In this document: positions 16,794-63,946 of the stretch, piece by piece
Layout: each line of letters begins with the position of its first letter
Numbering within the stretch: position 1 is the stretch's first letter
Virus record (IMG/VR): IMGVR_UViG_3300045988_105143
Coordinates: 1-64,000 of that record
Reading direction: 5' to 3' (one strand)
DNA length: 64,000 nucleotides
Origin: a virus
Program-made: the position numbers and the translations under genes
Notes under the pieces: generated by a model
Told to the model about the DNA's origin: nothing
Seen by the model: only the letters and a program-made list of their open reading frames with translations
Databases searched by the model: none

Positions 16794-16794
16794 A

Positions 16795-21689: not shown

Positions 21690-21707
21690 TCTGTTTTGTG
21701 GTATAAT
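21679..21707 (+). promoter_or_regulatory. consensus promoter P4
   Basis: TTGACA 21679-21684, 17-nt spacer, TGg, TATAAT 21702-21707. Overlaps the dnaE stop. Confidence 0.75.
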
Positions 21708-21762
21708 ACAGGTAAAGGAAGTAGATAACCTTTATTTATATTTTAGTTTACAAGGAGACACT

Positions 21763-32916: not shown

Positions 32917-32992
32917 GGGTGATTAGCTCAGCTGGGAGAGCACCTGCCTTACAAGCAGGGGGTCGCAAGTTCAAACCTTGCATCGCCCACCA
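32917..32992 (+). tRNA. trnV: tRNA-Val (anticodon TAC)
   Basis: Acceptor GGGTGAT/ATCGCCC, anticodon arm CCTGC-CTTACAA-GCAGG, T arm GCAAG-TTCAAAC-CTTGC, encoded CCA. Confidence 0.85.
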
Positions 32993-32999
32993 TTTACAT

Positions 33000-33089
33000 G
33001 GGTGGTTGACAGAGAGGCTTATTGTATCTCTTTGCTAAAGAGACGTCGTATAAAAGCGACCACAGGTTCGAATCCTGTACCATCCTCCA
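33000..33089 (+). tRNA. trnS: tRNA-Ser (anticodon GCT), long variable arm
   Basis: Acceptor GGGTGGT/ACCATCC, anticodon arm TCTCT-TTGCTAA-AGAGA, long variable arm, T arm ACAGG-TTCGAAT-CCTGT, CCA. Confidence 0.8.
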
Positions 33090-33093
33090 ACAT

Positions 33094-33169
33094 GGCTCGT
33101 TAGTCAAGTGGTTAAGACATCGCTCTTTCACAGCGAGAACGGTGGGTTCAATTCCCCCACGAGTCACCA
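33094..33169 (+). tRNA. trnE: tRNA-Glu (anticodon TTC)
   Basis: Acceptor GGCTCGT/ACGAGTC, anticodon arm TCGCT-CTTTCAC-AGCGA, T loop TTCAATT, CCA. Closely resembles Bacillus-type tRNA-Glu. Confidence 0.85.
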
Positions 33170-33240
33170 TTCGGTACTTATATACTATTGTTAAAGGCTT
33201 GCCATACCATGGGTGTTTTGCTGTATATACCATTCAACAG

Positions 33241-33314
33241 CTATATATTAGTTTACAGGTAAAACAAAGCCCTTGTGGGCGGAGACGGTGGGTTCGATAC
33301 CGACCATATATAGT
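33241..33314 (+). pseudogene. degenerate tRNA-like element
   Basis: All-AT acceptor CTATATA/TATATAG and a T-arm-like GTGGG-TTCGATA-CCGAC with one G-G mismatch. The anticodon region is GCCC-TTGT-GGGC with only a 4-nt loop, and there is no CCA. Confidence 0.3.
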
Positions 33315-33324
33315 GGTGTTATAT

Positions 33325-33399
33325 TCTTGGGTAGTTCAATGGTAGAGCATCTGGCTGTTAACCAGAATGTTGGGGGTTCGAGTCCCTCCCCAAGAGCCA
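33325..33399 (+). tRNA. trnN: tRNA-Asn (anticodon GTT)
   Basis: Acceptor TCTTGGG/CCCAAGA, anticodon arm TCTGG-CTGTTAA-CCAGA, T loop TTCGAGT, CCA. Confidence 0.85.
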
Positions 33400-33400
33400 T

Positions 33401-33486
33401 GTCGTTGTAGTCAAGATGGATAAAGACAACAGACTGTAAATCTGTCGCTTATAGCTTCGGAGGTTCGAATCCTCCCAACGGCACCA
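33401..33486 (+). tRNA. trnY: tRNA-Tyr (anticodon GTA), long variable arm
   Basis: Acceptor GTCGTTG/CAACGGC, anticodon arm ACAGA-CTGTAAA-TCTGT, long variable arm, T loop TTCGAAT, CCA. Confidence 0.8.
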
Positions 33487-33489
33487 CAT

Positions 33490-33567
33490 GGAGACTTAGC
33501 TCAGTAGGTAGAGCAACAGGTTGAAGCCCTGTGTTTAGCATTGGTTCAATTCCAATAGTCTCCACCA
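33490..33567 (+). tRNA. trnF: tRNA-Phe (anticodon GAA)
   Basis: Acceptor GGAGACT/AGTCTCC, D arm GCTC-AGTAGGTA-GAGC, anticodon arm ACAGG-TTGAAGC-CCTGT, 7-nt variable loop, T loop TTCAATT, CCA. Confidence 0.8.
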
Positions 33568-33725
33568 TAAGGTGTAGTCAACCTTAAATCACTTCATCTA
33601 AAATGACTCTAAATCCATTCATTTAATGGTCGGTATTTTGAGTTTGCCGTTAAGAAGATAACGATATACACTGTTTTTCTGAATTTAAAGAACGGATGTA
33701 TTTTGTTTTCTTAACTCATGAACAT

Positions 33726-33815
33726 GGAAAGTTGGCAGAGTCTGGTTTAATGCAACAGTCTTGAAAACTGTCGAGCAGAAATGCTCCGTGGGTTCGAATC
33801 CCACACTTTCCTCCA
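33726..33815 (+). tRNA. trnS: tRNA-Ser (anticodon TGA), long variable arm
   Basis: Acceptor GGAAAGT/ACTTTCC, anticodon arm ACAGT-CTTGAAA-ACTGT, long variable arm, T loop TTCGAAT, CCA. Confidence 0.8.
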
Positions 33816-33890
33816 GAGCCTTGATATTGAATTACGGTTTAATATCGCCTATCGGGTTACTTACGGGTTTCTTGGTAGGATAGGCATGTT

Positions 33891-33964
33891 ATGGGTATAG
33901 TGTAATGGAAACACGTTGGTCTCCAAAACCAAAGATAGAGGTTCGATTCCTCTTACCTGTGCCA
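33891..33964 (+). tRNA. trnW: tRNA-Trp (anticodon CCA)
   Basis: Acceptor ATGGGTA/TACCTGT (two G-U pairs, A1-U72 as in bacterial Trp), anticodon arm TTGGT-CTCCAAA-ACCAA, T loop TTCGATT, G73, CCA. Confidence 0.75.
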
Positions 33965-33968
33965 TATA

Positions 33969-34045
33969 CCCCCTATGATGAAACTGGCAAACATACTGGA
34001 CTTAGAATCCAGGTTCTGTAGGTTCGAGTCCTACTAGGGGTACCA
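33969..34045 (+). tRNA. trnL: tRNA-Leu (anticodon TAG), atypical: short variable loop, C1-U72 mismatch
   Basis: Acceptor CCCCCTA/TAGGGGT, 3-bp D stem with 11-nt loop, anticodon arm CTGGA-CTTAGAA-TCCAG, only a 5-nt variable loop, T arm GTAGG-TTCGAGT-CCTAC, A73, CCA. Confidence 0.6.
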
Positions 34046-34049
34046 ACAT

Positions 34050-34123
34050 TGTGGTGTAGTGTAATGGTAACACAGAAGACTTTGACTCTTCTATTCTAGG
34101 TTCAATCCCTAGCACCACTACCA
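34050..34123 (+). tRNA. trnQ: tRNA-Gln (anticodon TTG), U1-U72 mismatch
   Basis: Acceptor TGTGGTG/CACCACT, D arm GTGT-AATGGTA-ACAC, anticodon arm GAAGA-CTTTGAC-TCTTC, T arm CTAGG-TTCAATC-CCTAG, CCA. Confidence 0.7.
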
Positions 34124-34127
34124 ATAT

Positions 34128-34204
34128 TGCGGAGTAGTCCAATGGCAGAGACACGAGTCTCATAAGCTCGTATGGTGTGGGTTCAAGTCCCATCTCCGCT
34201 TCCA
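34128..34204 (+). tRNA. trnM: tRNA with CAT anticodon (Met, or Ile2 if lysidine-modified), U1-U72 mismatch
   Basis: Acceptor TGCGGAG/CTCCGCT, anticodon arm CGAGT-CTCATAA-GCTCG, T arm GTGGG-TTCAAGT-CCCAT, CCA. Confidence 0.7.
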
Positions 34205-34207
34205 CAT

Positions 34208-34283
34208 GGTCTCATGGAGTAAGGGTTATCTCGTCACCCTGTCAAGGTGAAGACTACGGGTTCAAATCCCGTTGAGACCGCCA
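34208..34283 (+). tRNA. trnD: tRNA-Asp (anticodon GTC)
   Basis: Acceptor GGTCTCA/TGAGACC, anticodon arm TCACC-CTGTCAA-GGTGA, T loop TTCAAAT, G73, CCA. Confidence 0.85.
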
Positions 34284-37029: not shown

Positions 37030-37893
37030 ATGAAATTTTTAGGTTTGAAATTAGCTGGGCTGGGTGTCTTAGTCCTGTTAGCATTTGCCCTTATCTATAA
37101 TACTACGTATATGATTTCTGCTGGTCATGCTGGTGTAGTATTTAACAAAATGGACGGTGGTATTCAACAAGAAACACTTGACCAAGGTTGGCATGTAGTG
37201 GCTCCGTGGAAACGTGTTACAGAATACCCTGTTAGCACAGAGTTAGCATACTACATTGACGGTAATCACGAAGACCGTAAAGACGTAGACGATAGTATCG
37301 TTATTGGTACAAAGGACGGTAAAACAATTAAGGTGGATGCACAAGTTACATATCATATGAATCAAGATTCTTTGCCTCATATCTACAATAAATTTAAAGG
37401 TCAAGACGATAGTATTATTGAATACGGCTACATGAAACAAAACTTCCAACGTATCGCTAATGATATTTCTTCTCATTATTCTATGATGGATATTGTAGGC
37501 GAAAAGAAAGAAGCTTTTAACCAAGAATTACTTAAAGAAGTATCCGAATTCTTCGACCAAGATGGTATTATCATCGAGCAAGCTTCACTTGGTAAAGTAG
37601 AGCCAGACAATGCGACTAAAGAAGCTATCCAAGCGGTAGCAAATGCTCAATATAAACAACGTCAAGCAGAATATGAAAAGATTGCCGCTGAAGCTGAAGC
37701 TAAGAAAAAAGTGGCAGTCGCTGAGGGTGATGCACAAGCCAAACGTATCCAAGCAGATGCTGAAGCATACTATAATGCACAAGTGGCTTCTAGCTTAACT
37801 CAAGAAATGGTACAACTTAAACAAGTTGAAAAATGGGATGGCAAATTGCCTACATATTCTGGTATTGCTAGTGGTTTGTTTAATTTTAAATAG
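37030..37893 (+). CDS. SPFH/Band-7 (prohibitin/flotillin-like) membrane protein
   Basis: N-terminal TM, then AGHAGVVFNK...GWHVVAPW..V.EYPV, a beta/alpha SPFH core, and a C-terminal A/E/K-rich coiled coil (AEAEAKKKVAVAEGDAQAKRIQADAEA). Confidence 0.8.
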   Translation: MKFLGLKLAGLGVLVLLAFALIYNTTYMISAGHAGVVFNKMDGGIQQETLDQGWHVVAPWKRVTEYPVSTELAYYIDGNHEDRKDVDDSIVIGTKDGKTIKVDAQVTYHMNQDSLPHIYNKFKGQDDSIIEYGYMKQNFQRIANDISSHYSMMDIVGEKKEAFNQELLKEVSEFFDQDGIIIEQASLGKVEPDNATKEAIQAVANAQYKQRQAEYEKIAAEAEAKKKVAVAEGDAQAKRIQADAEAYYNAQVASSLTQEMVQLKQVEKWDGKLPTYSGIASGLFNFK

Positions 37894-45187: not shown

Positions 45188-45421
45188 TCATTTGTAGAAT
45201 TGTTTAATTTTATATACCCTAGGAATGTCTGCTGTGTATTTGGTAAATATATTGCTATAGAACATACCCGCTCTATGGGTGTTACATATTTCTATATCGC
45301 CTGAACCTGGATTCATATAAGTTATTTTTAATACATAAATTCTATCAGCAGACTGCATATATATAAAGCAATCATTCTCCTTAAAATAATTGTCGTATCT
45401 ACGTATACTCATTCCACTCAT
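45188..45421 (-). CDS. small-protein family member H
   Basis: 77 aa. ...ENDCFIYMQS... ending RVYKIKQFYK. Confidence 0.6.
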   Translation of the reverse strand: MSGMSIRRYDNYFKENDCFIYMQSADRIYVLKITYMNPGSGDIEICNTHRAGMFYSNIFTKYTADIPRVYKIKQFYK

Positions 45422-45651
45422 TTGAATAACCTCTTTATTTCGTATAGTGACTTAAAATCGTGATGGTATTTCCAAAATGCATTACGGTAGTAATTGTCAT
45501 ATATACATATAGAATCAATTTCCATTACTAAAGAACCAATATTTACATCTAGTACTGTAAATATGCACCTCGCTATATTATTATTTGTGTCATAATATAG
45601 TAGCCTATCACCTGATTGAATATTTTTGTCATATAATTTTATGTCATACAT
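45418..45651 (-). CDS. small-protein family member I
   Basis: 77 aa. ...QSGDRLLYYD... ending SLYEIKRLFK. Confidence 0.6.
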   Translation of the reverse strand: MYDIKLYDKNIQSGDRLLYYDTNNNIARCIFTVLDVNIGSLVMEIDSICIYDNYYRNAFWKYHHDFKSLYEIKRLFK

Positions 45652-45874
45652 TATAAGCCTCCTTTATTTTGAATAAATTATAATAATCATCTTGCTCCTT
45701 CCAAAAGGTATATTCTATTACACTTGGCGTACCTGATAAAATCAGAACCTTGAGATAGCTATAACTTAGCCTTTTATCTATCACTTTGAGTTTAAAATAT
45801 TTACCGCTTTGTGATATAAACATATATTCTTTATTTTCTATAAGAGAATTATCATAAAGTCCTATGGATATCAT
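45644..45874 (-). CDS. small-protein family member J
   Basis: 76 aa, ending NLFKIKEAYNV. Confidence 0.6.
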   Translation of the reverse strand: MISIGLYDNSLIENKEYMFISQSGKYFKLKVIDKRLSYSYLKVLILSGTPSVIEYTFWKEQDDYYNLFKIKEAYNV

Positions 45875-45875
45875 G

Positions 45876-46175
45876 TTAATACCTTTCTTTCAATCTAAGC
45901 ATATTTTTAATATCTATTATGTTTTTAAAGAAATAGTCGCGAGAATGTCTGTGATATAATGGATAATGCTCGATACGCATAGCTCGTTCGAGATTATTTA
46001 TTTCAGTTATCACAAAACTTTTCCAACCAACATCTGAATCCCATAATATAATATCACCATTTTTGAATAGTTTGTTATAGATATCTCTTTCCTTGTCCTT
46101 GTTTAACAGCCCTATATCTATGAAGTCTGGGTATGAATATTGAAGTTTTTTCCAACTTTTAAATATCTCACTCAT
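45876..46175 (-). CDS. small-protein family member K (longer N-terminus)
   Basis: 99 aa. ...KNGDIILWDS... ending NMLRLKERY. Confidence 0.55.
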   Translation of the reverse strand: MSEIFKSWKKLQYSYPDFIDIGLLNKDKERDIYNKLFKNGDIILWDSDVGWKSFVITEINNLERAMRIEHYPLYHRHSRDYFFKNIIDIKNMLRLKERY

Positions 46176-46333
46176 TGTCTTGCCTTTCTGATAGCCTCAT
46201 CTATCAAATCTGTTAGTTTTTCAAAACCCACTGAAAATGTTTCAAAGTCGTCATATCATGTAAAGTCTAAACTATCTTCTACATCATGGACAATTTTATT
46301 ATATTTCTTTTCATCAATTTGTATCGTAATCAT
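46172..46333 (-). pseudogene. 53-codon ORF interrupted by an in-frame TGA
   Basis: AAGGAGG RBS, with ATG 46333 abutting the upstream TAA. MITIQIDEKKYNKIVHDVEDSLDFT-TGA(46258-46256)-YDDFETFSVGFEKLTDLIDEAIRKARQ. The terminal TGA overlaps the next ATG (ATGA). Confidence 0.4.
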
Positions 46334-46558
46334 TTAGTATACCTCCTTTATTTTAAATATATAATTTTGTGTTCGACTTGTTTTCAGAAAATGAGAATTA
46401 CAAAAAGAATCATCTCTAAATCTTCTAAATGATATTTGCATATATTGGGATTCTGGCTGTAGATTTTCAACACGAACCTCATAGACCAAATAATTATCGA
46501 GAGAGAAAGATTCATATATAAATTTATCACCATTTTTGAAAAATTCCTCGTGTGTCAT
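46334..46558 (-). CDS. small-protein family member L
   Basis: 74 aa. ...KNGDKFIYES... ending YIFKIKEVY. Confidence 0.6.
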   Translation of the reverse strand: MTHEEFFKNGDKFIYESFSLDNYLVYEVRVENLQPESQYMQISFRRFRDDSFCNSHFLKTSRTQNYIFKIKEVY

Positions 46559-46582
46559 ACTAACCTCCAGAGAGGAAAGGGG

Positions 46583-47590
46583 CTATTTCGCCCCTTTATA
46601 TTCCTTGTCACCAGCAAAAACAGTTTTATTTTGAATACGCTTATTAATCACAGCACTAGGATAATCCACCCAGAATACAATACTGTAGTCTTTAATAAGA
46701 TAATCATATACAGATGTGTAATTATCATAGGCAAATTGATTAAACTCGTCGATAAATTCCTCAATAGCGTCGTCGTCCATTTTACCAAAGAATACTTCTA
46801 CAGGGTAATATTTACGAGCTACACCGTCATCGTCAATTGTATCAACGATACCTTTTAAACAATCTGGGTATGTCTTTTTGAGGAACTCCTCATATGTCTT
46901 AGTTGTTTGGTTAAGATGTTCCGACGCATCATCATAAGCACTATCATAACTATAGTTACCGTAGCCATACAAATCATAGTCATAGTAAGATGTTTTCCAT
47001 GTTGTACGGTAAGTTTTATAAGAGGTATTGGAATACCAAGCACCGCTTTCTTTGCTTTCTGTGAACTCGCCTAACATAGCCACACATCCGTTATTACCAA
47101 GGAATACTAGTTTATTGCCTCTTGTATGTTGTGCCAGTAATTCTTGTACTTGTTTTTTCCAAATAGCGTTACCTAAAGGGTAAGCCATTTCTTTAATAAA
47201 CTGCATGGTATCGCTATGCTTGGATGCCATACCTAATTTAGGCGTGTAATCACTAAGAATACCGTTGTGAACCATACCAACATCACAATATGTATTTGCT
47301 TTCCCCATCGCTTTATAATCATCACTCACAGCGAATGGGTGACAAGTTGAAGGGGCAATAGCACCACTTGTTGCAATACGGAAATGGAATACACGGTGAA
47401 TATCTGACGGGATTTTTATAGCTTCAGCCCAGAACTCTTCGAAAGTAAAGAACCCTTTTTTAATATGGGTTTTACCTTTGGCGGAGTCCCAATACATAAG
47501 ACCAGCACCGTCATTATTATAATCAAAACAATTTTTTAATTCTTTTTCATTCAATTCTAAACCTGCTTCATATACTGCAATTACGCACAT
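46583..47590 (-). CDS. class-II (Ntn) glutamine amidotransferase-like protein
   Basis: N-terminal MCVIAV (catalytic Cys2), FHFRIATSGAIAPSTCHPF, MVHNGIL and HSDTMQFI match the YafJ/GATase_4-type pattern. The ~110-aa C-terminal extension is Tyr/Asp-rich. Confidence 0.75.
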   Translation of the reverse strand: MCVIAVYEAGLELNEKELKNCFDYNNDGAGLMYWDSAKGKTHIKKGFFTFEEFWAEAIKIPSDIHRVFHFRIATSGAIAPSTCHPFAVSDDYKAMGKANTYCDVGMVHNGILSDYTPKLGMASKHSDTMQFIKEMAYPLGNAIWKKQVQELLAQHTRGNKLVFLGNNGCVAMLGEFTESKESGAWYSNTSYKTYRTTWKTSYYDYDLYGYGNYSYDSAYDDASEHLNQTTKTYEEFLKKTYPDCLKGIVDTIDDDGVARKYYPVEVFFGKMDDDAIEEFIDEFNQFAYDNYTSVYDYLIKDYSIVFWVDYPSAVINKRIQNKTVFAGDKEYKGAK

Positions 47591-47642
47591 AATATTTCTC
47601 CTTTTTCTAAATATAAATTATAATATAAAACCAAACCAAGAA

Positions 47643-49328
47643 TTACATGTTCAAGTTATCCATTCTTGTTAGCAACTCTTTATATTGACGCTCTTCCGCT
47701 AATTTACGGACATTTGCGAATGTAAAATCTTCCCATTGCCCATTAGCTAAGTCCGTTAAGACATCTGTCATTTGGATAAAGCTCCGAATAACATCAGCTT
47801 CATATGTAGAGTTCCACAATCGAATTTCAATCGTTGCGGAATTTTGAACATTTACGGCACTATACCGTTCGCAACGAGCTTCACTATAGCAACTTTCAAA
47901 AGTAGAGCAACACTCTACATCTGTAGGTCTAGCCCATTGATGAGCATCACTGCTGTTACGTTTGGCAAAACGTACTAGCTTGTCATAATTTTCAGCGAAG
48001 AACCGTACCAGTTTACCGATATGGGAACGACTTTCAAAGTGGTCTCTGGATACATGGATATGTATACCAGCACCTTCAGGTTCGTTATACCCTGCATTAT
48101 CTAATGTTTCTACGAGGTTTTCCCAGTCAATATTATTTAGCATGAACTGTGTTGTACAAGGGTGAGTCACTGCTTCAAACCCATCTTCCAACGAGCCGTC
48201 ATATTTGCAATACCAATGAGGATACTTGCCGAAAATTTTTCTTGCTGTATGGTCGGAACAGCCACCGCCTTGCACCTCATATTCTAAGCCAAGATATTTA
48301 TTGGTGCCCTCACCGAAAAACTTAGCGTCAGGCTTATAAGAATAAGAGCGGATAAACTCTGTTTCTCCGTGAAGATAATAGTTATCTTCATCAACGATGT
48401 CATCGTCATCGTAACAGCGGTCACAGATAACATAATCATTTTCTGTGACGTTGGTATTATCTTCTAAATAATACTCACCACAATGAGCACATTGTCTGAA
48501 ATAGGCATTTAAAGAACGATAGCTGACATAATCTTCGATAGAACCTACATAGACACAATCACCTCTACTATAATAATTATTGTCATAACTAGACCAGTGG
48601 TAGTTTTCTAAGCAGGAACTACAAACATTTTTATCGTAATTATCCAGGTACTCTGTATCTGAATCATGATGAATACATCCACAGTCTGCACAGATAAAAT
48701 ACTCATCTGTGAGCCCGTTAGCCACATCTTGACGAGTAATAATATCACCGTCTTCTGTAGTAACATAATTCTCACTATTTTTAATAACAATGTCATCAGA
48801 CAAAGACGAGCAGGCAACTTCTTCTTTATTTAATGGCATTAGGTCAACGCCGACTTTCACTTTAATATTGCCGTCTACAACACGCCCTGTTAAGACTGAC
48901 ACTGGTACTGTTAGTTCAGTCCAGAGCGAAGTGGATTCTTTATTAAACTCGTTTGGGGAATTCGGAATTTTCACTACACCGCCCTCGGAGTCAATATAAA
49001 TAATAGCACCGTCCACGTTGTAGAATTTTTCCGTTTCTACGAAGTCGCCAGTTTTGGTTTTGTAAATATGTTTATTGCCAAACCCTACGTCTACAACGGT
49101 TTCATCTATAGTCATTTTTACAATACCATTAGCAAAATAAATGACATTAGGTGGTAACGTAACGTTTTCCTCATGGTAAGGTTTAGGAAGGTCAGCGACT
49201 GGAATACGCTTAATATTAGTACTATCAGCCGTATCTCGCAAAAAATAAAAATCCTCACCACTTGACATTTGTGTAGCCAATGCTTCAAGTTCCATTAATT
49301 TCCCATCAATTACATAAAGTTTTTCCAT
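47643..49328 (-). CDS. amidoligase (GCS2/glutamine-synthetase-like COOH-NH2 ligase, Amidoligase_2 type) with N-terminal domain and Cys-rich zinc-ribbon region
   Basis: C-terminal half: LGLEYEVQGGG, KYDGSLEDGFEAVTHP, GAGIHIHVS and SATIEIRLWNST follow the Amidoligase_2 motif order. The middle has about 12 Cys in CxxC-type pairs (CADCGC...CSSC...CAHCG...CDRC). Confidence 0.75.
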   Translation of the reverse strand: MEKLYVIDGKLMELEALATQMSSGEDFYFLRDTADSTNIKRIPVADLPKPYHEENVTLPPNVIYFANGIVKMTIDETVVDVGFGNKHIYKTKTGDFVETEKFYNVDGAIIYIDSEGGVVKIPNSPNEFNKESTSLWTELTVPVSVLTGRVVDGNIKVKVGVDLMPLNKEEVACSSLSDDIVIKNSENYVTTEDGDIITRQDVANGLTDEYFICADCGCIHHDSDTEYLDNYDKNVCSSCLENYHWSSYDNNYYSRGDCVYVGSIEDYVSYRSLNAYFRQCAHCGEYYLEDNTNVTENDYVICDRCYDDDDIVDEDNYYLHGETEFIRSYSYKPDAKFFGEGTNKYLGLEYEVQGGGCSDHTARKIFGKYPHWYCKYDGSLEDGFEAVTHPCTTQFMLNNIDWENLVETLDNAGYNEPEGAGIHIHVSRDHFESRSHIGKLVRFFAENYDKLVRFAKRNSSDAHQWARPTDVECCSTFESCYSEARCERYSAVNVQNSATIEIRLWNSTYEADVIRSFIQMTDVLTDLANGQWEDFTFANVRKLAEERQYKELLTRMDNLNM

Positions 49329-49378: not shown

Positions 49379-49555
49379 CTACTCCTGCAATAAAAAGATA
49401 GCGTTTTGTAAATTCCACACGCAACTACGGTAGTGCTGTGAAGTCTTTACCATAACACGATGTTCCCCGCCAGTACGGTTTGCAATACGTGTTATATCAC
49501 GTGTGTCTAACTTACGACCGTGATTGTCGTCATATGTGAAATACACGGTATCCAT
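49379..49555 (-). CDS. possible small protein (58 aa, below cutoff)
   Basis: ATG 49555 to TAG 49379. No convincing RBS, but it fills a gap. Confidence 0.25.
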   Translation of the reverse strand: MDTVYFTYDDNHGRKLDTRDITRIANRTGGEHRVMVKTSQHYRSCVWNLQNAIFLLQE

Positions 49556-49652
49556 ATCTTCGTATACATGGCTCGCAAGGGGAATAACTTGCTTACCCTT
49601 TAGTACAGTAAATCACCTGGTCTTTGCTATACTCTGACAAGCTTTTAACGAC

Positions 49653-49892
49653 TTACTTAGAAGTTTTTTGTTTCACGCTCTCAGGTGTTGAATATTTACA
49701 AGAAAAGGCGATAGTTCCTGGTGAACCACTAAAACTAGTGACTGGGAATACTTTTCCACTACCTAACTCAATAATTTGCCATACTGAGTTCATTGGTTTT
49801 TCATTACACATTTTGATTACATCACTGCTTGTGTCTGCTGGGACTATTAAAAATGGCTTGCCATTAATTTGAGACTTCAAAATACAATACAT
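49653..49892 (-). CDS. hypothetical protein
   Basis: 79-aa ORF with GAGGAG RBS. Confidence 0.55.
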   Translation of the reverse strand: MYCILKSQINGKPFLIVPADTSSDVIKMCNEKPMNSVWQIIELGSGKVFPVTSFSGSPGTIAFSCKYSTPESVKQKTSK

Positions 49893-49896
49893 GAAA

Positions 49897-50019
49897 TTAC
49901 TCCTCTTTCATCACACGCTTAACTGTGTGGTATACGAGCATACCCATTAAAAAATAGCCTACTACAAGGATAGACCAAGCCACAATGTGACCTACAAATT
50001 GCACAATACTAATATCCAT
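49897..50019 (-). CDS. tiny membrane protein (40 aa, below cutoff)
   Basis: AAGGAG RBS 6 nt before ATG 50019. MDISIVQFVGHIVAWSILVVGYFLMGMLVYHTVKRVMKEE. Confidence 0.5.
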   Translation of the reverse strand: MDISIVQFVGHIVAWSILVVGYFLMGMLVYHTVKRVMKEE

Positions 50020-50115: not shown

Positions 50116-50144
50116 ATTGTACCACATGGACACGATTTTATCAA
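50116..50144 (-). promoter_or_regulatory. near-consensus promoter of the inverted block
   Basis: On the minus strand: TTGATA (50144-50139), 17-nt spacer, TGg, TACAAT (50121-50116). Preceded by AAATAAGCGGA. Confidence 0.6.
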
Positions 50145-58215: not shown

Positions 58216-59376
58216 TTGGCTAAGGAAATGGCTGTAAAGTCTTATAACGTGGTTGGTAAAGTAGAAGATATGAATGACTTCATCACGAATATCGACCCTG
58301 ACCAAACACTTTTAACTTCTCGTTTCGGTAAACTTACCGTAACAAGTACAGAGCACGCATGGTTATGCGATAGCTTACGCCCTGCGATGGATAACGCTAC
58401 ACTTGAAGTACATGACTTCAATACTCGTCAAGCTACTCCACGTAGACGTGAATCTAACTTCACACAACAATTCGAACATGGTTACACAGTATCTGATATC
58501 ACTCAAGCTATCAAGAAATATGGTGTACGTGACGAAAAATCTTATCAAATGTTGAAAGCTTCTAAAGAAATTGGTCGTGACTTAGAGTATGCGATTGTTT
58601 CTAACAAAGTAAAAACTCCATTTGATGAAGTTACACCTGGTCGCTTTGGTGGTATCCCTTACTTCTTGGACAACTTCTCTGAAGTAACTGTAGATGCACA
58701 AGGTGTCGTAACACTTAACTCTCACCGTTTCGTAACTGGTGATAAAGTTATTGTTCGTGGTAAAGGTGCTAATGCACTTGATTCTAAATTCTCCCCGAAC
58801 ACTCAATATTTCGTTAAACCTAAAGATGCTAATACATTCACATTGCATTTGACAGCAGAAGATTCTGCGGCAACTCTTGGCACACCAGTAAAACCATCTG
58901 CCGCTGTTACTGCTGGTAAAATGGAATTGACATATTGCAATGCTATCGATGCTGGTAAACTTGCTTCTCAAGGTGAGTTCACTATGGAAGCATTGAATGA
59001 TGCTATGCAAGCAGTATGGGGACGTGGTGGTAATATCGACATTGCCGTTATGTCTGGTAAGAATAAACGTAAAGCATCTACATTCACAGCTAACTCTCAA
59101 CGTAACGTAGCTATGGAAGCTAAGAAATTAACTCAAGTAGTTGACGTTATCGAAACTGACTTCGGTGTTGTTGAGTTGGTTGCTCATCGTATGTACGAAA
59201 ACGATGTTGTTGATTTGCTTGAATTGCAATACTGGAAACTTGGTTACCTTATTCCATTCCATAACGAAGATTTGGAACGTAAAGGTACTTACAAAGAGTC
59301 CGTAATTACAGGTACAGCTACTCTCGAATGTACTGCACCAATTGCCAACGCTCGTTTGTACGGCATTACAAAATAA
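58216..59376 (+). CDS. major capsid protein
   Basis: DMNDFITNIDPDQTLLTSRFGK...TEHAWLCDSL is the N-terminal signature I associate with SU10/GP7-type HK97-fold capsid proteins. Followed by a strong terminator. Confidence 0.85.
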   Translation: MAKEMAVKSYNVVGKVEDMNDFITNIDPDQTLLTSRFGKLTVTSTEHAWLCDSLRPAMDNATLEVHDFNTRQATPRRRESNFTQQFEHGYTVSDITQAIKKYGVRDEKSYQMLKASKEIGRDLEYAIVSNKVKTPFDEVTPGRFGGIPYFLDNFSEVTVDAQGVVTLNSHRFVTGDKVIVRGKGANALDSKFSPNTQYFVKPKDANTFTLHLTAEDSAATLGTPVKPSAAVTAGKMELTYCNAIDAGKLASQGEFTMEALNDAMQAVWGRGGNIDIAVMSGKNKRKASTFTANSQRNVAMEAKKLTQVVDVIETDFGVVELVAHRMYENDVVDLLELQYWKLGYLIPFHNEDLERKGTYKESVITGTATLECTAPIANARLYGITK

Positions 59377-59383
59377 ACCATTT

Positions 59384-59415
59384 GGGGGTAGTTAATTCTA
59401 CCCCCTTATTTTTGT
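59384..59415 (+). terminator. rho-independent terminator after capsid gene
   Basis: GGGGGTAG (59384-59391) TTAATT CTACCCCC (59398-59405) followed by TTATTTTTG. Confidence 0.85.
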
Positions 59416-59433
59416 TTCTAAAGGTAGGTATTT

Positions 59434-59742
59434 ATGTTAATTAGTTCACAAGTTACAGTAGATAAAGATACCTGGTCTATTCAACATACGTTTGATGAGA
59501 CAGAAGTATTAGAGCAGGCTAGAGAAGAACGTAATAGTGGGCTTGAAGGAGATATGGGTGGTGGGCAAGGTAAAGTCATTGCTCGTATCCCAAGACATCG
59601 ATTCTTTAGCGACTTTGAGTTGATTATGGCTCAAAAATGCCAAGGTATTGACAAGAAAGAGTATGAAATGTGGATACGTAAATGGATTATGAAAAACCCA
59701 GAATTCCGTACAACTACAGGAAATACTAAGAGGTATTTATGA
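59434..59742 (+). CDS. hypothetical head/connector protein
   Basis: 102-aa ORF with AGGTAGG upstream. Confidence 0.55.
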   Translation: MLISSQVTVDKDTWSIQHTFDETEVLEQAREERNSGLEGDMGGGQGKVIARIPRHRFFSDFELIMAQKCQGIDKKEYEMWIRKWIMKNPEFRTTTGNTKRYL

Positions 59743-60248
59743 TTGAAGTAAGAGATGTAGTGACATCAGTCCTATATGGACTTGGAGAAAACGCTACTCG
59801 AAAACATAGTGACCCAGAAATCATTGATTCTCTAAATATGGTTTTACGCTATATCAATCTAGCCTTGATTAATACTAAATCATACTGGATTGCTAAAGAA
59901 ATTAAATTAAAGCCCAAAAACGGTAAAGCTAAACTACCAGAAGATTTTGGTGGATTTAAAGAGTTTGAAAACTACGATGGTAAATATAAATTTACTAAAG
60001 ACTCTATTAAAATTGATAAAGACACCAATATGACATATCTCTATATCATTGACCCTATTGAAAATATAGACGATGAAATAGATTTGCCATATGTTCTATT
60101 CGATATGTTTAGCCGATACTCTATAGGACTGCTCAATGGTAATTTTGGGTCCGACACAGTGGCAGGTTTGATATCTGCCGAAATTCAAAAATTGGTGGCA
60201 AATGAGTCTAGCGGACCTATTGATAGACCTATGCCATTCTTTGTATAG
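59739..60248 (+). CDS. hypothetical head-tail connector protein
   Basis: 169-aa ORF with an ATGA overlap. Confidence 0.55.
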   Translation: MIEVRDVVTSVLYGLGENATRKHSDPEIIDSLNMVLRYINLALINTKSYWIAKEIKLKPKNGKAKLPEDFGGFKEFENYDGKYKFTKDSIKIDKDTNMTYLYIIDPIENIDDEIDLPYVLFDMFSRYSIGLLNGNFGSDTVAGLISAEIQKLVANESSGPIDRPMPFFV

Positions 60249-60256
60249 GAGGTATA

Positions 60257-60718
60257 ATGACAGCTAACGACTTATTAATTCTCGTTCGGCAACGTTTAGG
60301 AGATATGCAAAAGCTTTCTCTATCTGACGAAGAATTAATTATGAGTTTAAACGTGGCTATCGACCGACTTAGCGAAGAACTATCTCAGAATAATAATCCA
60401 GAATTAGTTAAAGAACTGACTTTAACAGGTAATAATAAAACTGCACGACCAGATGATTTTATCGAATTGTGCGGACAGTTCCCTGTTGTTTTCAGTCAAG
60501 ATACTGATGGTATTAAAATCCAGCACATGAATCCTAATTATACTGGGACTATGACTATTCGCTATTTCGCTAGTAGACCTCACGTAACAAATTTATCCGA
60601 TAAGATACCTTTTGACAAAATACTACAACAACGTCAATTAGTAACTTACACGGTATATGATATTAAATCTATCACAGGGGAGGTAAAAGAAAATGACGGT
60701 GCAGGAGCTAATGGATAA
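60257..60718 (+). CDS. hypothetical head-tail connector protein
   Basis: 153-aa ORF with AGGAGG RBS. Confidence 0.55.
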   Translation: MTANDLLILVRQRLGDMQKLSLSDEELIMSLNVAIDRLSEELSQNNNPELVKELTLTGNNKTARPDDFIELCGQFPVVFSQDTDGIKIQHMNPNYTGTMTIRYFASRPHVTNLSDKIPFDKILQQRQLVTYTVYDIKSITGEVKENDGAGANG

Positions 60719-61151
60719 GGCGGCTCTACGAGACCGTTTAAGTGACAACCTCCAAAGTGGTTATGAAGATAAAGAGTTAATTGCTTATATGAATGACGCC
60801 ATTAACTTTATGTGGCATGTCCTTATCCAAAAAGGATATTATGAGGTGATTGGAGATATTGAATTTGCTCAAGAAAACAATGATTTGCCAACTGATTGGT
60901 ATAGGGCTACAAATCAAGCTCCTGTACTTATTAAACCACCTAAAGCAATTGTTTACGGCAAAGTACCGTTAAAGGTTCGATATTATAAACGCCCACCACA
61001 ACTTTCACAAAAAACAGATTCATTACCATTCACAAATAATGCGTTTAATAACCTTATTGGGCAATTAGTGATTATCTTAGCCATGTCAAATCACGGCTTT
61101 AATATGGACGTCGAACAAGATATGCTAGAGGCTATTGTTGGTTTATTATAG
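60693..61151 (+). CDS. hypothetical head-tail connector protein
   Basis: 152-aa ORF with GGGGAGG RBS. N-terminus similar in style to the previous gene (..L..RL.D......D.EL....N.A). Confidence 0.55.
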   Translation: MTVQELMDKAALRDRLSDNLQSGYEDKELIAYMNDAINFMWHVLIQKGYYEVIGDIEFAQENNDLPTDWYRATNQAPVLIKPPKAIVYGKVPLKVRYYKRPPQLSQKTDSLPFTNNAFNNLIGQLVIILAMSNHGFNMDVEQDMLEAIVGLL

Positions 61152-63076: not shown

Positions 63077-63946
63077 ATGGCTGAAACACAAAACTTACAC
63101 ATTACATTTGGACCATTACCAGAAGGTTTCCGTGGTCCTCAAGGTCCCGCTGGTCCTATTGGTCCACAAGGTCCTCAAGGTCCTCAAGGTCCTAAAGGAG
63201 ATAGTGTAGACAACACTAAATATCCAAACGTAGCAGGATATTTAAAACGTCAAAACGTATATGCTACCGATGATTTAGAAAGTATTTTATATGCTTTAAT
63301 TGACAATTTAGGTAAACCATTACCAAAAATTCCAGCATCCTTCTCTTTTAATCAACCAAATGCAGGTGATACATCTGTATATGTATATGGAGAATCCCAC
63401 TTCTTTGTAATGCTTGCAGGTCAAGAAAATACTAAGACAGAAATTATTGGCGGCGTAGCATCCTTAGCATTACCACAACCATTTGGCACAGATACATTAG
63501 TACTTGATTATCTTGATATGACAGGCTCTCGTGTTGAAACATATCGTATCACTCCAGATGTTAATGTTACTACTGTAGCTAAAGCTGGTCAATATTATAA
63601 TATCTATGGCGTAGATACATTAGAATTACCGCATGTTACAACTGTAGAAGAAGAAGCAATTACATTTAGTGGTTATCGTGCTATTAAGTTACCAGAATGT
63701 ACATCTTGGATTAAAGGTCCTACAAATTGCAGTAACCTCGAAGAAGTATATTGCCCTAAATTAGCATTAACACAAGAAATGAGATGGAACATGAATAACT
63801 TACCACAAGGCGGCTGTGAATTTGTATTAAGTGAAGCCAGCGACGTTGAAGCATTAGCGAAAGGTTTAGTGCCTTGGACTAAACTTTACAACGCCGATAA
63901 AACAAAGAAATTTAACTTTAATACTAAAACTTGGGTTACAGTATAA
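63077..63946 (+). CDS. collagen-like + LRR-like fibre protein
   Basis: N-terminal GFRGPQGPAGPIGPQGPQGPQGPKGD. C-terminal xLPxxxxx repeats (ELPHVTTV, KLPECTSW, YCPKLALT) related to the 1285-2232 product. Confidence 0.7.
   Translation: MAETQNLHITFGPLPEGFRGPQGPAGPIGPQGPQGPQGPKGDSVDNTKYPNVAGYLKRQNVYATDDLESILYALIDNLGKPLPKIPASFSFNQPNAGDTSVYVYGESHFFVMLAGQENTKTEIIGGVASLALPQPFGTDTLVLDYLDMTGSRVETYRITPDVNVTTVAKAGQYYNIYGVDTLELPHVTTVEEEAITFSGYRAIKLPECTSWIKGPTNCSNLEEVYCPKLALTQEMRWNMNNLPQGGCEFVLSEASDVEALAKGLVPWTKLYNADKTKKFNFNTKTWVTV

What the first reader, a model, noticed from the sequence alone, without database searches (positions are those of the whole stretch)
46583..49328. Amidoligase (COOH-NH2 ligase) plus Ntn class-II amidotransferase pair: candidate phage small-molecule or protein-modification system
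Two adjacent, co-directional genes sit in the inverted accessory block.

The 561-aa product has a C-terminal half with the Amidoligase_2 / gamma-glutamyl-cysteine-synthetase-2-like motif series (LGLEYEV, DGSLEDGFEAVTHP, GIHIHVS, TIEIRLW). This is preceded by a ~200-aa domain of unknown type and a region with about 12 Cys arranged as CxxC pairs (multiple zinc ribbons).

The 335-aa neighbour starts MCVIAV (Ntn nucleophile Cys2) and carries RIATSG...HPF, HNG and SDT motifs of YafJ-type class-II glutamine amidotransferases. It also has an unusual Tyr/Asp-rich C-terminal extension.

Comparative-genomics work on amidoligases (Iyer, Aravind and colleagues, 2009) predicted that such ligase/GAT-II pairs make peptide-like metabolites or amide-tag proteins. 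To my knowledge no phage version has a demonstrated substrate. The location among early, host-directed genes suggests host takeover or counter-defence chemistry rather than nucleotide metabolism. dut, thyX and nrdJ are elsewhere, and no hypermodification genes are seen.
Basis: partly seen in the sequence, partly recalled or inferred. Interest (0 to 1): 0.75.

Follow-up and report, generated by a model that had tools for sequence, protein, structure and literature searches.

The report
Phage amide-ligase and glutamine-amidohydrolase gene pair
Two neighbouring phage genes encode an ATP-dependent amide-bond-forming enzyme and a glutamine-type amide-cleaving enzyme that almost always travel together; the pairing has been recognised in phages since 2009, but its substrate is still unknown.

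Summary
Window 47643-49328(-) encodes a 561-aa protein: a beta-rich N-terminal domain, two Cys4 zinc ribbons and an Amidoligase_2 (PF12224) domain. Window 46583-47590(-) encodes a 335-aa protein: a Cys2 class-II glutamine-amidotransferase-fold domain, a Tyr/Asp-rich disordered linker and a small C-terminal domain. Profile searches, structure models and fold searches agree on both folds. The catalytic residues are invariant in homologues down to about 20-30 % identity.

The genes are tightly linked. 79 of 80 viral loci fetched through the GATase-like protein also encode the ligase, and so do all 75 loci with enough flanking DNA. The same adjacency occurs in phage Marvin, OM43 phage MEP402, phiEco32, a Veillonella genome contig and a marine contig with a defence-system gene set.

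The pair is not new. The exact protein is already named "putative amidoligase" in nr, and the ligase/GATase association has been described as a hypothetical "peptidoglycan modification cassette". I found no substrate demonstrated in any phage.

New here: this lineage carries a minimal two-gene version, and the ligase N-terminal domain and GATase C-terminal domain are always present or absent together (34 both, 46 neither, 0 mixed).

The most likely chemistry is gamma-glutamyl or glutamine-type amide ligation plus hydrolysis on an unidentified target.

The parts
47643..49328 (-). Ligase gene (561 aa): N-terminal beta-rich domain, two zinc ribbons, linker, Amidoligase_2 catalytic domain
   Evidence: ORF. 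PF12224 E 2.2e-7, 31.4 bits, above the cut-off of 22. PHROG 16683/22302/2443 'amidoligase'. AF2 model with mean pLDDT 79. Exact match to nr 'MAG TPA: Putative amidoligase enzyme [Caudoviricetes sp.]'.
48714..49328 (-). Ligase N-terminal beta-rich domain (aa 1-205), confined to this ligase subfamily; proposed targeting or docking module
   Evidence: Block-mean pLDDT about 78-94, nearly all beta strands. The exhaustive HMMER search found only family members plus repeat-inflated hits. Present only in loci that also have the window-type GATase C-terminal domain.
48399..48713 (-). Two Cys4 zinc ribbons (C213/216/236/239 and C280/283/302/305)
   Evidence: Four CxxC pairs. The first ribbon is invariant in 14/14 sequences, the second is kept in 12/14. 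CxxC motifs precede the ligase domain in most GATase-paired relatives. One BFVD relative is named 'LIM domain containing protein'.
47646..48320 (-). Carboxylate-amine ligase (Amidoligase_2 / GS-like) catalytic domain, aa 337-561
   Evidence: E349, E351, D377, S379, E385, H423, H425, E501 and R503 are invariant across ten ligases at 19-36 % identity; H389, R428 and R488 are also invariant within the close family. Foldseek PDB: YbdK 1r8g E 7e-4, Dop 4b0r, PafA 4bjr, GS 3fky.
46583..47590 (-). GATase-like gene (335 aa): Ntn class-II GATase domain, Y/D-rich linker, C-terminal domain
   Evidence: ORF. phrog_25883. AF2 model with mean pLDDT 85. 108 homologues.
47009..47590 (-). Cys-Ntn class-II glutamine-amidotransferase-fold domain (aa 1-194)
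   Evidence: Invariant M1-C2, N25, G28, G30, H69, R71, T74, G76, H84-P85, H108-N109-G110, D127, S187-N188, S190 in 24 sequences at 23-72 % identity. Profile against PDB: PurF E 0.0019, with HFRIaTsG / HNG / SDT aligned on HTRYATTG / HNG / SDS. Foldseek: GlmS glutaminase domain 1xff E 1.5e-5, TMt 0.50; PurF; AsnB.
46907..47008 (-). Tyr/Asp-rich disordered linker (aa 195-228)
   Evidence: pLDDT < 50 for residues 195-228. 36 % Y+D in aa 191-232. Length and sequence vary among homologues.
46586..46906 (-). GATase C-terminal domain (aa 229-335), specific to this subfamily
   Evidence: Block-mean pLDDT mostly 83-95, mixed helices and strands. Only weak fold hits to small domains: an RNA-binding domain, Boca, ribosomal protein S6 (prob 0.77-0.85). 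Co-varies completely with the ligase N-terminal domain: 34 loci have both, 46 have neither, 0 are mixed.
46576..46597 (-). 8-bp GC-rich hairpin spanning the GATase stop codon, with no T-run on the coding strand; an RBS and the next small gene follow
   Evidence: It is probably not a terminator for the minus strand, so the pair looks co-transcribed with the downstream small ORFs.
50116..50144 (-). Best sigma-70-like promoter match upstream of the block that contains the pair (weak evidence)
   Evidence: TTGATA-17-TACAAT with an extended TG. However, the promoter-like count in the region is no higher than in shuffles (59 against 61.8 +/- 8.7). A strong minus-strand terminator at 50869-50849 lies just upstream.

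Best explanation
The two genes encode a functionally coupled enzyme pair that makes and processes a glutamate- or glutamine-type amide bond.

Shown:
- The 561-aa protein has the fold and the full catalytic residue set of the glutamine-synthetase-like carboxylate-amine ligases (Amidoligase_2; nearest solved relatives YbdK/GCS2, PafA/Dop, GS).
- The 335-aa protein has the fold and residue set of a class-II Ntn glutamine amidotransferase domain: the Cys2 nucleophile, the N109-G110 oxyanion hole, and R71 and D127, which in PurF and GlmS hold the alpha-carboxylate and alpha-amino groups of glutamine.
- The two genes are inherited as a unit across very distant phages and at least one cellular mobile element.
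- The accessory domains of the two proteins are swapped together between subfamilies.

Inferred:
- The ligase uses ATP to activate a carboxylate as an acyl phosphate and joins it to an amine.
- By analogy with the GCS2-type ligase EgtA and the stand-alone class-II-GATase-like hydrolase EgtC, and with PafA/Dop, I favour this scheme: the ligase installs a gamma-glutamyl-type amide on an amine-bearing target, and the Cys-Ntn partner then hydrolyses a gamma-glutamyl or glutamine amide to mature, remove or recycle it.
- The zinc ribbons and the co-varying ligase N-terminal and GATase C-terminal domains either select the target or dock the two enzymes. This points to a macromolecule or an envelope precursor rather than a bulk metabolite.
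- The pair acts inside the infected cell, expressed from the non-structural divergent block. Its biological role is probably in phage-host conflict, but the target is not identified.
For: - Ligase family, residues and fold.
- GATase fold and glutamine-pocket residues. Cys2 is retained even where gene callers mis-set a GTG start.
- Linkage: 79 of 80 loci, and 75 of 75 with enough flanking DNA. Adjacency also holds in MEP402, Marvin, L003, L004, the Veillonella contig L085, L089, L090, L091 and phiEco32 gp84/gp83. In L091 the two genes overlap by 10 nt.
- Accessory-domain co-variation: 34 loci with both, 46 with neither, 0 mixed.
- The best Pfam match of the GATase-like protein is GATase_4, and the YafJ-like protein 1te5 ranks third among its PDB profile hits. 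From my own knowledge, GATase_4 is the YafJ/EgtC type of stand-alone class-II GATase-like proteins. The ligase's best PDB match is GCS2-type YbdK.
- In other phages the same ligase family is accompanied by gamma-glutamyl cyclotransferase, which implies gamma-glutamyl linkages (phiEco32 gp77; PMC11318856; PMC5498523).
- Conflict context: a cellular homologue pair lies beside QatB / QueC-like / TatD genes, a resolvase and a MazE antitoxin. [quoted passage not shown]
Against: - No substrate, product or complex has been shown for any member.
- The gamma-glutamyl assignment rests on analogy only. Conserved R71 and D127 fit free glutamine (a plain glutaminase) just as well.
- The co-variation of accessory domains may reflect very few evolutionary events, because the 80 loci are phylogenetically clustered.
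- The window has no GGCT, ATP-grasp enzyme or second ligase and no enzyme that could act between ligation and hydrolysis.
- The Pfam hit for the GATase is below threshold.
- The TM-scores of the ligase fold matches are low (TMt 0.36 or less), because the catalytic domain is the less confident part of the model.
- Expression timing is unknown.
- The defence-gene neighbourhood was seen in one contig family only.
Confidence: 0.4

Rival explanations
1. Heteromeric glutamine-dependent amidotransferase, following MurT/GatD or GatCAB logic. The GATase-like subunit hydrolyses free glutamine and passes ammonia to the ligase. The ligase activates a carboxylate on the target with ATP and converts it to a carboxamide.
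For: - Strict 1:1 linkage, tight spacing and overlapping genes are typical of two subunits of one enzyme.
- The full glutamine pocket of true amidotransferases is conserved: Cys2, R71, N109-G110, D127.
- Co-varying accessory domains could form a docking interface.
- Glutamine synthetase itself, a structural relative, uses ammonia as its nucleophile.
Against: From my own knowledge, class-II GATase domains that donate ammonia are fused N-terminally to their synthase domain, and I know of no GS-like ligase fed by a glutaminase subunit. No GATase-ligase fusion was seen in more than 80 loci, even where the gene order is GATase then ligase. The ligase's nearest solved relatives (YbdK, PafA) use amines larger than ammonia.
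Confidence: 0.3
2. This is the literature's hypothesis: the pair is a reduced form of the podovirus 'peptidoglycan modification cassette'. It would alter peptide stems of the host cell wall or its precursors after infection, for example to block superinfection or to tune lysis.
For: - The same PF12224 ligase then GATase adjacency lies inside the phiEco32 cassette (gp84/gp83 with gp86, gp80 and gp77) and in LUZ24-like phages (PMC3890496). The hypothesis itself is stated in PMC5498523 and PMC10580990.
- The window phage shares SU10-family capsid and adaptor proteins, and its relatives carry an SU10-family portal. From my own knowledge, SU10 is a phiEco32-like Kuravirus.
- A small membrane ORF is conserved just upstream in most relatives.
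Against: - The hypothesis has never been tested experimentally in the papers I found.
- The window lacks the ATP-grasp enzyme, GGCT and second ligase.
- Neither protein has a signal peptide or membrane segment in the models.
- Homology to phiEco32 gp84 and gp83 is remote (hhalign probability 35 % and 82 %).
- The pair occurs in phages of hosts with very different walls (Mycobacterium, OM43, and a relative in a Veillonella genome), and its accessory domains vary by lineage.
Confidence: 0.15
3. Nucleic-acid-directed amide chemistry: the pair modifies RNA, tRNA or DNA, or an aminoacyl or nucleotide carboxylate. The zinc ribbons and the small C-terminal domain of the GATase would act as nucleic-acid-binding modules.
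For: - Two zinc ribbons lie upstream of the ligase domain.
- There is a weak fold match of the GATase C-terminal domain to an RNA-binding domain and to ribosomal protein S6.
- In Clostridioides phage AR1086-1 a PF12224 ligase sits beside RlaP and near KptA, which are RNA-repair-type genes.
- The cellular pair lies beside a QueC-like gene.
- The window encodes 12 tRNAs.
Against: - All structural hints are weak (prob 0.77-0.85, TMt 0.36-0.48).
- ThyX, dUTPase and RNR indicate ordinary dTTP synthesis, and no base-modification enzyme was detected.
- The AR1086-1 ligase has no GATase partner, so it may belong to a different system.
- The QueC-like gene is on the opposite strand and belongs to a Qat-type gene set.
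Confidence: 0.1
4. Auxiliary metabolic genes that boost nitrogen, glutamate or glutathione metabolism of the host, as proposed for a Planctomycetes phage.
For: GCS2-type enzymes make gamma-glutamylcysteine, and glutaminases feed nitrogen metabolism. PMC10945688 interprets the amidoligase, GATase, GGCT and glutathione synthase genes of one phage in this way.
Against: - NCBIfam found no equivalog for either protein.
- The proteins are very divergent from cellular enzymes and carry lineage-specific accessory domains that co-vary, which is not expected for a housekeeping metabolite enzyme.
- No glutathione synthase is present in the window.
Confidence: 0.05

Closest known systems
Two-gene amidoligase / GATase pairs of Mycobacterium phage Marvin (gp105/gp106) and Methylophilales phage MEP402 (gp06/gp07)
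   Same: Same gene order (ligase then GATase-like), same two catalytic domains, no further cassette genes, located among non-structural genes. CxxC motifs precede the ligase domain. Function is unknown in the literature (PMC10580990).
   Different: Only about 23-34 % identity. They lack the window-type ligase N-terminal domain and GATase C-terminal domain. Their hosts are unrelated.
phiEco32 / LUZ24 / RIO-1-type multi-ligase 'peptidoglycan modification cassette' (phiEco32 gp77 GGCT, gp80 ATP-grasp, gp83 GATase, gp84 amidoligase, gp86 COOH-NH2 ligase)
   Same: A PF12224 ligase lies immediately upstream of a class-II GATase (PMC3890496). The window phage shares SU10-family capsid and adaptor proteins, and its relatives share the portal; from my own knowledge SU10 is phiEco32-like. 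The cassette's function is only hypothesised.
   Different: The window has no ATP-grasp enzyme, GGCT or PF14395 ligase. gp84 (367 aa) has no zinc ribbons or N-terminal domain, and gp83 is 676 aa with a long C-terminal region. Homology is remote.
EgtA / EgtC of ergothioneine biosynthesis (own knowledge: Seebeck 2010; EgtC structures 2015)
   Same: A GCS2-type carboxylate-amine ligase makes a gamma-glutamyl amide, and a stand-alone class-II-GATase-like Cys-Ntn hydrolase later removes the gamma-glutamyl group. These are the same two folds working in one pathway. The window ligase's top PDB match is the GCS2-type YbdK, and the GATase-like protein's best Pfam match is GATase_4, which from my own knowledge is the YafJ/EgtC-type family.
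   Different: No sequence-level membership: EgtC did not appear among the PDB hits at E <= 1. There are no EgtB or EgtD equivalents. The phage proteins carry zinc ribbons and extra domains. The resemblance is in logic, not in family membership.
PafA / Dop pupylation enzymes
   Same: GS-like ligase fold: Dop 4b0r and PafA 4bjr are ranks 2-3 in the fold search. A ligase is paired with an amide hydrolase acting on a Glu or Gln side chain.
   Different: Dop is itself a GS-like paralogue, not a GATase. No conserved Pup-like small protein is encoded next to the pair.
MurT / GatD lipid II amidotransferase (PMC3267633)
   Same: A two-subunit ATP-dependent ligase plus glutaminase pair encoded by adjacent co-transcribed genes, which amidates a carboxylate of a cell-wall precursor. 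It is the model for the amidotransferase rival.
   Different: MurT is a Mur-ligase-fold enzyme and GatD is a class-I (triad) GATase. Neither fold matches those found here.

Membership tests
Amidoligase_2 (PF12224) / glutamine-synthetase-like carboxylate-amine ligase superfamily | Pfam model match above the curated gathering score | tested here: met
   31.4 bits against a cut-off of 22, E 2.2e-7, aa 381-522. PHROG amidoligase families also match.
Amidoligase_2 (PF12224) / glutamine-synthetase-like carboxylate-amine ligase superfamily | Conserved acidic, His and Arg active-site residues on the core strands (GxExE; DGSL..GxE; HxH; ExR) | tested here: met
   E349, E351, D377, S379, E385, H423, H425, E501 and R503 are invariant in ten ligases at 19-36 % identity, including phiEco32 gp84 and Marvin gp105 and the close family.
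Amidoligase_2 (PF12224) / glutamine-synthetase-like carboxylate-amine ligase superfamily | GS / GCS2 / PafA-type fold | tested here: met
   Foldseek PDB: YbdK 1r8g E 7.2e-4, Dop, PafA and GS at prob 0.99-1.00, but with low TM-scores (TMt 0.36 or less). 55 viral models match at E <= 0.001, many of them named amidoligase.
Amidoligase_2 (PF12224) / glutamine-synthetase-like carboxylate-amine ligase superfamily | ATP-dependent amide-bond formation through an acyl phosphate | not testable with these tools
   Needs an enzyme assay.
Class-II (Ntn) glutamine amidotransferase domain | Nucleophile Cys directly after the initiator Met | tested here: met
   M1-C2 is invariant in 24 homologues. In two distant loci the Cys is recovered once the GTG start is corrected.
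Class-II (Ntn) glutamine amidotransferase domain | Glutamine pocket and oxyanion hole (Arg, Asn-Gly and Asp equivalent to PurF R73, N101-G102, D127) | tested here: met
   R71, N109-G110 and D127 are invariant. They align on the PurF motifs HTRYATTG, HNG and SDS. The PurF residue numbers are from my own knowledge.
Class-II (Ntn) glutamine amidotransferase domain | Ntn fold shared with solved class-II GATase glutaminase domains | tested here: met
   GlmS glutaminase domain 1xff E 1.5e-5, TMt 0.50; PurF; AsnB. The domain's block-mean pLDDT is mostly above 90, range 80-98.
Class-II (Ntn) glutamine amidotransferase domain | Pfam GATase model above the gathering score | tested here: not met
   GATase_4 scores 12.1 bits against a cut-off of 23, E 0.092. 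Relatives reach 18-19 bits. A divergent subfamily; membership rests on the profile, fold and residue evidence.
Class-II (Ntn) glutamine amidotransferase domain | Coupling to a synthase active site through an ammonia channel | not testable with these tools
   No multimer prediction was available. There is no fused synthase domain, and the C-terminal 100 aa form a small domain of unknown type.
phiEco32 / LUZ24-type multi-ligase cassette | PF12224 ligase adjacent to a class-II GATase | tested here: met
   for the window; for phiEco32 gp84/gp83.
phiEco32 / LUZ24-type multi-ligase cassette | Accompanying ATP-grasp ligase, PF14395 COOH-NH2 ligase and gamma-glutamyl cyclotransferase | tested here: not met
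   None was found among the window ORFs of 120 aa or more that I scanned with Pfam or PHROGs. The 2771-aa ORF and ORFs under 120 aa were not scanned.
Pup-like tagging system (PafA/Dop plus small tag) | Conserved small protein with a C-terminal Gln or Glu encoded beside the ligase | tested here: not met
   The 58-aa upstream ORF ends in QE, but this is not conserved. In relatives the corresponding gene is a 119-aa protein ending NRNGIR.
Known anti-phage defence systems (PADLOC-DB 2.0) | Match to any model of a known or candidate defence protein | tested here: not met
   No family at E <= 0.01 for either protein.

The most novel reading that the evidence does not exclude
The pair is a target-guided amide-tagging device used in phage-host conflict. 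The zinc-ribbon and beta-domain module of the ligase and the C-terminal domain of the Cys-Ntn enzyme co-evolve to recognise a lineage-specific host or defence macromolecule, which is covalently glutamylated or amidated and thereby inactivated. Cellular copies next to defence genes would use the same chemistry against phages.
Probability: 0.2. Interest if true: 0.8.

Novelty: new member of a known kind. Interest (0 to 1): 0.45.

Why it matters
PF12224-ligase / class-II-GATase pairs are spread across a very wide range of phages: enterobacterial, Pseudomonas, mycobacterial and marine OM43 phages, and large numbers of IMG/VR metagenomic viral contigs. They also occur in at least one cellular mobile element. 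More than fifteen years after they were predicted, I found no reported substrate.

This lineage offers a minimal two-gene version with well-folded accessory domains that change in step between subfamilies. That gives a concrete handle for finding the target, through pull-downs with the accessory domains and mass-shift proteomics or metabolomics.

Finding the chemistry would annotate thousands of phage genes. It could also reveal a new type of covalent host or defence modification, or confirm the untested cell-wall hypothesis. As a sequence finding it is not surprising to a specialist, because the exact protein is already labelled a putative amidoligase.

Tried and rejected
- Pup-like tag. The 58-aa ORF upstream of the ligase ends in '...LLQE', but that C-terminus is not conserved. 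The window's 79-aa and 58-aa ORFs are remnants of genes that are intact in relatives L008, L011 and L012. Rejected.
- Ligase N-terminal domain as a cell-wall-binding or tail-fibre repeat. The exhaustive HMMER search gave E 2.7e-33 to a 2581-aa repeat protein. This is one 42-aa, roughly 30-bit match counted 22 times against near-identical repeats, and the Pfam hits of those proteins are scattered and sub-threshold. Foldseek hits to toxin A and dextransucrase repeats have prob 0.21 or lower. Not accepted.
- Lar-like restriction alleviation. The Pfam hit at aa 279-308 is sub-threshold (14.3 bits against 28.6) and reflects only the zinc ribbon.
- NCBIfam: no hit for either protein. PADLOC: none. 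Megablast of the region against 50,697 phage records: none. Sequence profile of the ligase family against PDB: nothing significant.
- Promoter scan: the count is no higher than in shuffles (59 against 61.8), so the operon boundaries are only suggestive.
- Test of 'GGCT replaces GATase' in a phage branch lacking a GATase. Clostridioides phage AR1086-1 has neither; its ligase lies beside RlaP and near KptA. So the displacement argument rests on the literature and on phiEco32 only.
- Host assignment. The single genome scan found one relative, in Veillonella sp. VA139, at 32 % identity. This is a hint for that branch, not proof for the window phage.
- Iyer et al. 2009 (PMC3268129) is not held in the library. 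Its content is cited only through papers that summarise it.

Full report
OBSERVATION

Each has a canonical ribosome-binding site. A 52-nt AT-rich spacer without a terminator separates them.

All the quoted motifs are present at the expected positions. The Cys-rich region has 10 cysteines. Eight of them form four CxxC pairs, which make two Cys4 zinc ribbons. The first ribbon is invariant in 14 of 14 homologues and the second is kept in 12 of 14.

The 'Tyr/Asp-rich extension' of the second protein is a disordered linker (aa 195-228, pLDDT < 50; 36 % Y+D in aa 191-232) followed by a well-folded domain of about 100 aa.

WHAT THE PROTEINS ARE

Ligase:
- It passes Pfam's curated threshold for Amidoligase_2 (31.4 bits against 22) and matches PHROG amidoligase families.
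- An AlphaFold2 model built on 14 homologues has mean pLDDT 79. It is highest in the N-terminal beta-rich domain and the zinc ribbons, and lower in the catalytic domain.
- The model finds YbdK/GCS2, Dop, PafA and glutamine synthetase as its best PDB matches. It matches 55 viral models at E <= 0.001, many named amidoligase. These include phage tf, Arthrobacter, Cellulophaga and crAss-like phages, Cronobacter phage vB_CsaP_009 and a giant virus.
- In an alignment of ten ligases at only 19-36 % identity, E349, E351, D377, S379, E385, H423, H425, E501 and R503 are invariant. The ten are the window protein, a marine mobile-element copy, an actinophage-like contig, OM43 phage MEP402, Marvin gp105, a Clostridioides phage protein, phiEco32 gp84 and others.

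GATase-like protein:
- It falls below Pfam's GATase_4 threshold (12.1 bits against 23).
- A profile of 24 homologues hits only class-II amidotransferases in PDB (PurF E 0.0019, YafJ-like 1te5, GlmS). Its motifs HFRIaTsG, HNG and SDT align on the PurF motifs HTRYATTG, HNG and SDS.
- Its model (mean pLDDT 85) matches the GlmS glutaminase domain (E 1.5e-5, TMt 0.50), PurF and AsnB.
- M1-C2, R71, N109-G110 and D127 are invariant.
- In two distant loci whose called proteins seemed to lack Cys2, an in-frame GTG-TGT with a good RBS lies just upstream, so the nucleophile is present there too.

LINKAGE

- Of 80 IMG/VR loci fetched through the GATase-like profile, 79 also encode the ligase catalytic domain. 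The one exception is a locus where the gene lies at the contig edge. All 75 loci with at least 1.8 kb of upstream DNA have the ligase.
- Most loci have the order ligase then GATase. Seven have the reverse order, with an 830-874-aa ligase ORF.
- The adjacency also holds in MEP402 gp06/gp07, Marvin gp105/gp106, two lineage relatives at 31-37 % ligase identity, a Veillonella sp. genome contig, two further distant contigs, and phiEco32 gp84/gp83.
- It also holds in a marine contig where the two genes overlap by 10 nt. There they sit next to QatB / QueC-like / TatD genes, a resolvase and a MazE antitoxin, which is a defence-island or mobile-element setting.

WHAT THIS LINEAGE ADDS

The window is a nearly complete podovirus-like genome of about 65 kb: the exact ligase protein occurs on a 64,793-bp contig. 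Its capsid and adaptor, and the portal of its relatives, belong to SU10 families. From my own knowledge SU10 is a phiEco32-like Kuravirus. Unlike phiEco32, the window has no ATP-grasp enzyme, gamma-glutamyl cyclotransferase or PF14395 ligase. It therefore carries a minimal two-gene module, like Marvin and MEP402.

The ligase N-terminal domain (aa 1-205) and the GATase C-terminal domain (aa 229-335) are either both present (34 loci) or both absent (46 loci), never one alone. Other subfamilies carry different, Pfam-negative accessory regions of similar size on both proteins. So the catalytic cores are constant and the accessory parts of both proteins are exchanged together. This is compatible with a docking interface or with joint recognition of a lineage-specific target. 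The caveat is that it may reflect only a few evolutionary events.

The N-terminal domain has no robust relatives outside the family. The apparent strong hits are inflated by repeats.

LITERATURE

- The association is well known as a prediction. UFV-P2 and LUZ24-like phages list COOH-NH2 ligase, amidoligase, GATase and ATP-grasp genes (PMC3890496).
- RIO-1-like phages are described as carrying a seven-gene 'peptidoglycan modification cassette', shared with phiEco32, 7-11, PA11, tf, LUZ24, PaP3 and CW02. It is 'hypothesized' to prevent superinfection (PMC5498523).
- The OM43 phage paper states that the function 'remains to be explored' (PMC10580990).
- An eLife paper reads the genes as nitrogen-metabolism AMGs (PMC10945688).
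- I found no paper reporting a substrate. Iyer et al. 2009 itself is not held.

MECHANISM

Shown: the two folds, the two conserved active sites, obligatory linkage, and co-varying accessory domains.

Inferred: the ligase activates a carboxylate with ATP (acyl phosphate) and joins it to an amine. The partner forms a gamma-glutamyl thioester on Cys2 from glutamine or a gamma-glutamyl amide whose free alpha-amino and alpha-carboxylate groups are held by D127 and R71.

I favour gamma-glutamyl-type ligation followed by Cys-Ntn hydrolysis (confidence about 0.4), for three reasons:
- The only characterised pathway I know that combines these two folds works that way: EgtA, a GCS2-type ligase, and EgtC, a stand-alone GATase-II-like hydrolase (own knowledge).
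- The nearest solved relatives of the ligase make gamma-glutamyl amides.
- The ligase family elsewhere travels with gamma-glutamyl cyclotransferase.

The main rival (about 0.3) is a two-subunit glutamine-dependent amidotransferase in the manner of MurT/GatD. It explains the strict 1:1 linkage and the intact glutamine pocket equally well, but it has no precedent for a separate class-II subunit or for a GS-like acceptor enzyme.

The identity of the target is open. The cell-wall hypothesis, a nucleic-acid target and plain metabolism are given as lower-probability rivals.

VERDICT

The finding is real and correctly identified, but it is a new member of an already described, still uncharacterised kind of phage system. 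Its interest lies in the unsolved chemistry and in the minimal, co-varying architecture of this lineage, not in its discovery.

Noticed in passing
window 16770-17143 (+): Two adjacent orphan ncRNA motifs from Rfam: EGFOA-assoc-1 RNA (RF02970, 293.6 bits against a gathering score of 224.5) at 16770-17019, and EGFOA RNA (RF02955, 50.8 bits against 37.7) at 17029-17143. They lie between the Amidase_2 endolysin-like gene and the DNA polymerase.
   Followed up: no
window 32917-34283 (+): Cluster of 12 tRNA genes: Val, Ser x2, Glu, Asn, Tyr, Phe, Trp, Leu, Gln, Met, Asp.
   Followed up: no
window 18064-21689 (+): The DNA polymerase is split into two ORFs (18064-19200 and 20046-21689, both phrog_405). 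An HNH_3 + NUMOD4 homing-endonuclease ORF lies between them at 19306-19824.
   Followed up: partly
window 45188-46558 (-): Five tandem small ORFs (74-99 aa) directly downstream of the GATase-like gene. Four of them share a C-terminal '[YF]xIKxx[YF]'-like ending, so they look like a paralogous array. Similar arrays of roughly 70-85-aa ORFs flank the SNF2 helicase in relatives L003 and L004.
   Followed up: no
window 49379-49892 (-): The 79-aa and 58-aa ORFs upstream of the ligase look like remnants of a deletion or frameshift. The 79-aa ORF joins the N-terminus of a 63-aa protein to the N-terminal part of a 119-aa protein, both intact in relatives L008, L011 and L012. The 58-aa ORF starts like the C-terminal end of that 119-aa protein.
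   Followed up: partly
window 49897-50019 (-): A 40-aa ORF with a hydrophobic, probably single-pass membrane segment (MDISIVQFVGHIVAWSILVVGYFLMGMLVYHTVKRVMKEE) is conserved upstream of the ligase operon in most relatives. The L003/L015/L085 branch instead has a roughly 75-aa ORF with a hydrophobic C-terminus.
   Followed up: no
window 58216-61151 (+); L003, L004: The structural module belongs to SU10 families: SU10_MCP E 4e-71, weak SU10_adaptor matches, and SU10_portal in relatives. A Cpn10-like gene lies between terminase and portal in relatives.
   Followed up: partly
window 506-1288 (+) and 63077-63946 (+): Collagen-triple-helix-repeat proteins at both ends of the window: E 4e-22 for the first, and a weak sub-threshold match (E 0.0015) for the second. 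They are probably fibre proteins.
   Followed up: no
L091 3793-8526 (marine metagenome contig; the GATase-like protein P0169 is named Ignavibacteriae in NCBI): A cellular or mobile-element copy of the pair: a 405-aa ligase gene overlapping a 238-aa GATase-like gene. It lies beside TatD / QueC-like / QatB genes (a Qat-type defence gene set), an AAA ATPase, a resolvase, MazE and a DUF87 ATPase. The identical GATase-like protein is on at least 24 contigs.
   Followed up: partly
L093 1179-10940: A JGI metagenome contig with three Amidoligase_2 paralogues, one GATase-like gene and an AAA_23 ATPase in one co-directional block. This is a multi-ligase variant different from the phiEco32 cassette.
   Followed up: no
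L088 138-6932 (Clostridioides phage AR1086-1): A 370-aa Amidoligase_2 protein with no GATase or GGCT partner lies next to an RlaP nucleotidyltransferase (RNA-repair family) and about 4 kb from a KptA RNA 2'-phosphotransferase.
   Followed up: partly
L089 about 4124 and L090 about 1281: Gene callers mis-set the start of the GATase-like genes. The true starts are GTG codons followed by TGT, so the catalytic Cys2 is cut off in the database proteins. Automated surveys of 'Cys2 conservation' would be misled by this.
   Followed up: yes
L085 (Veillonella sp. VA139, NZ_RQVL01000001.1 21011-34723): A full-length ligase (32 % identity) plus GATase-like pair with both window-type accessory domains lies inside a 247-kb Veillonella genome contig. 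This suggests Veillonella as host, or a prophage or contaminant, for that branch of the lineage.
   Followed up: partly
window 46576-46597: An 8-bp GC-rich hairpin has the GATase stop codon in its loop. No T-run follows on the coding strand. It may be an RNA stability or processing element rather than a terminator.
   Followed up: no
window 37030-37893 (+) and 21661-22560 (+): The phage encodes an SPFH/Band_7 protein (E 3.6e-26) and a Rad52/22-family recombinase (E 6e-18).
   Followed up: no
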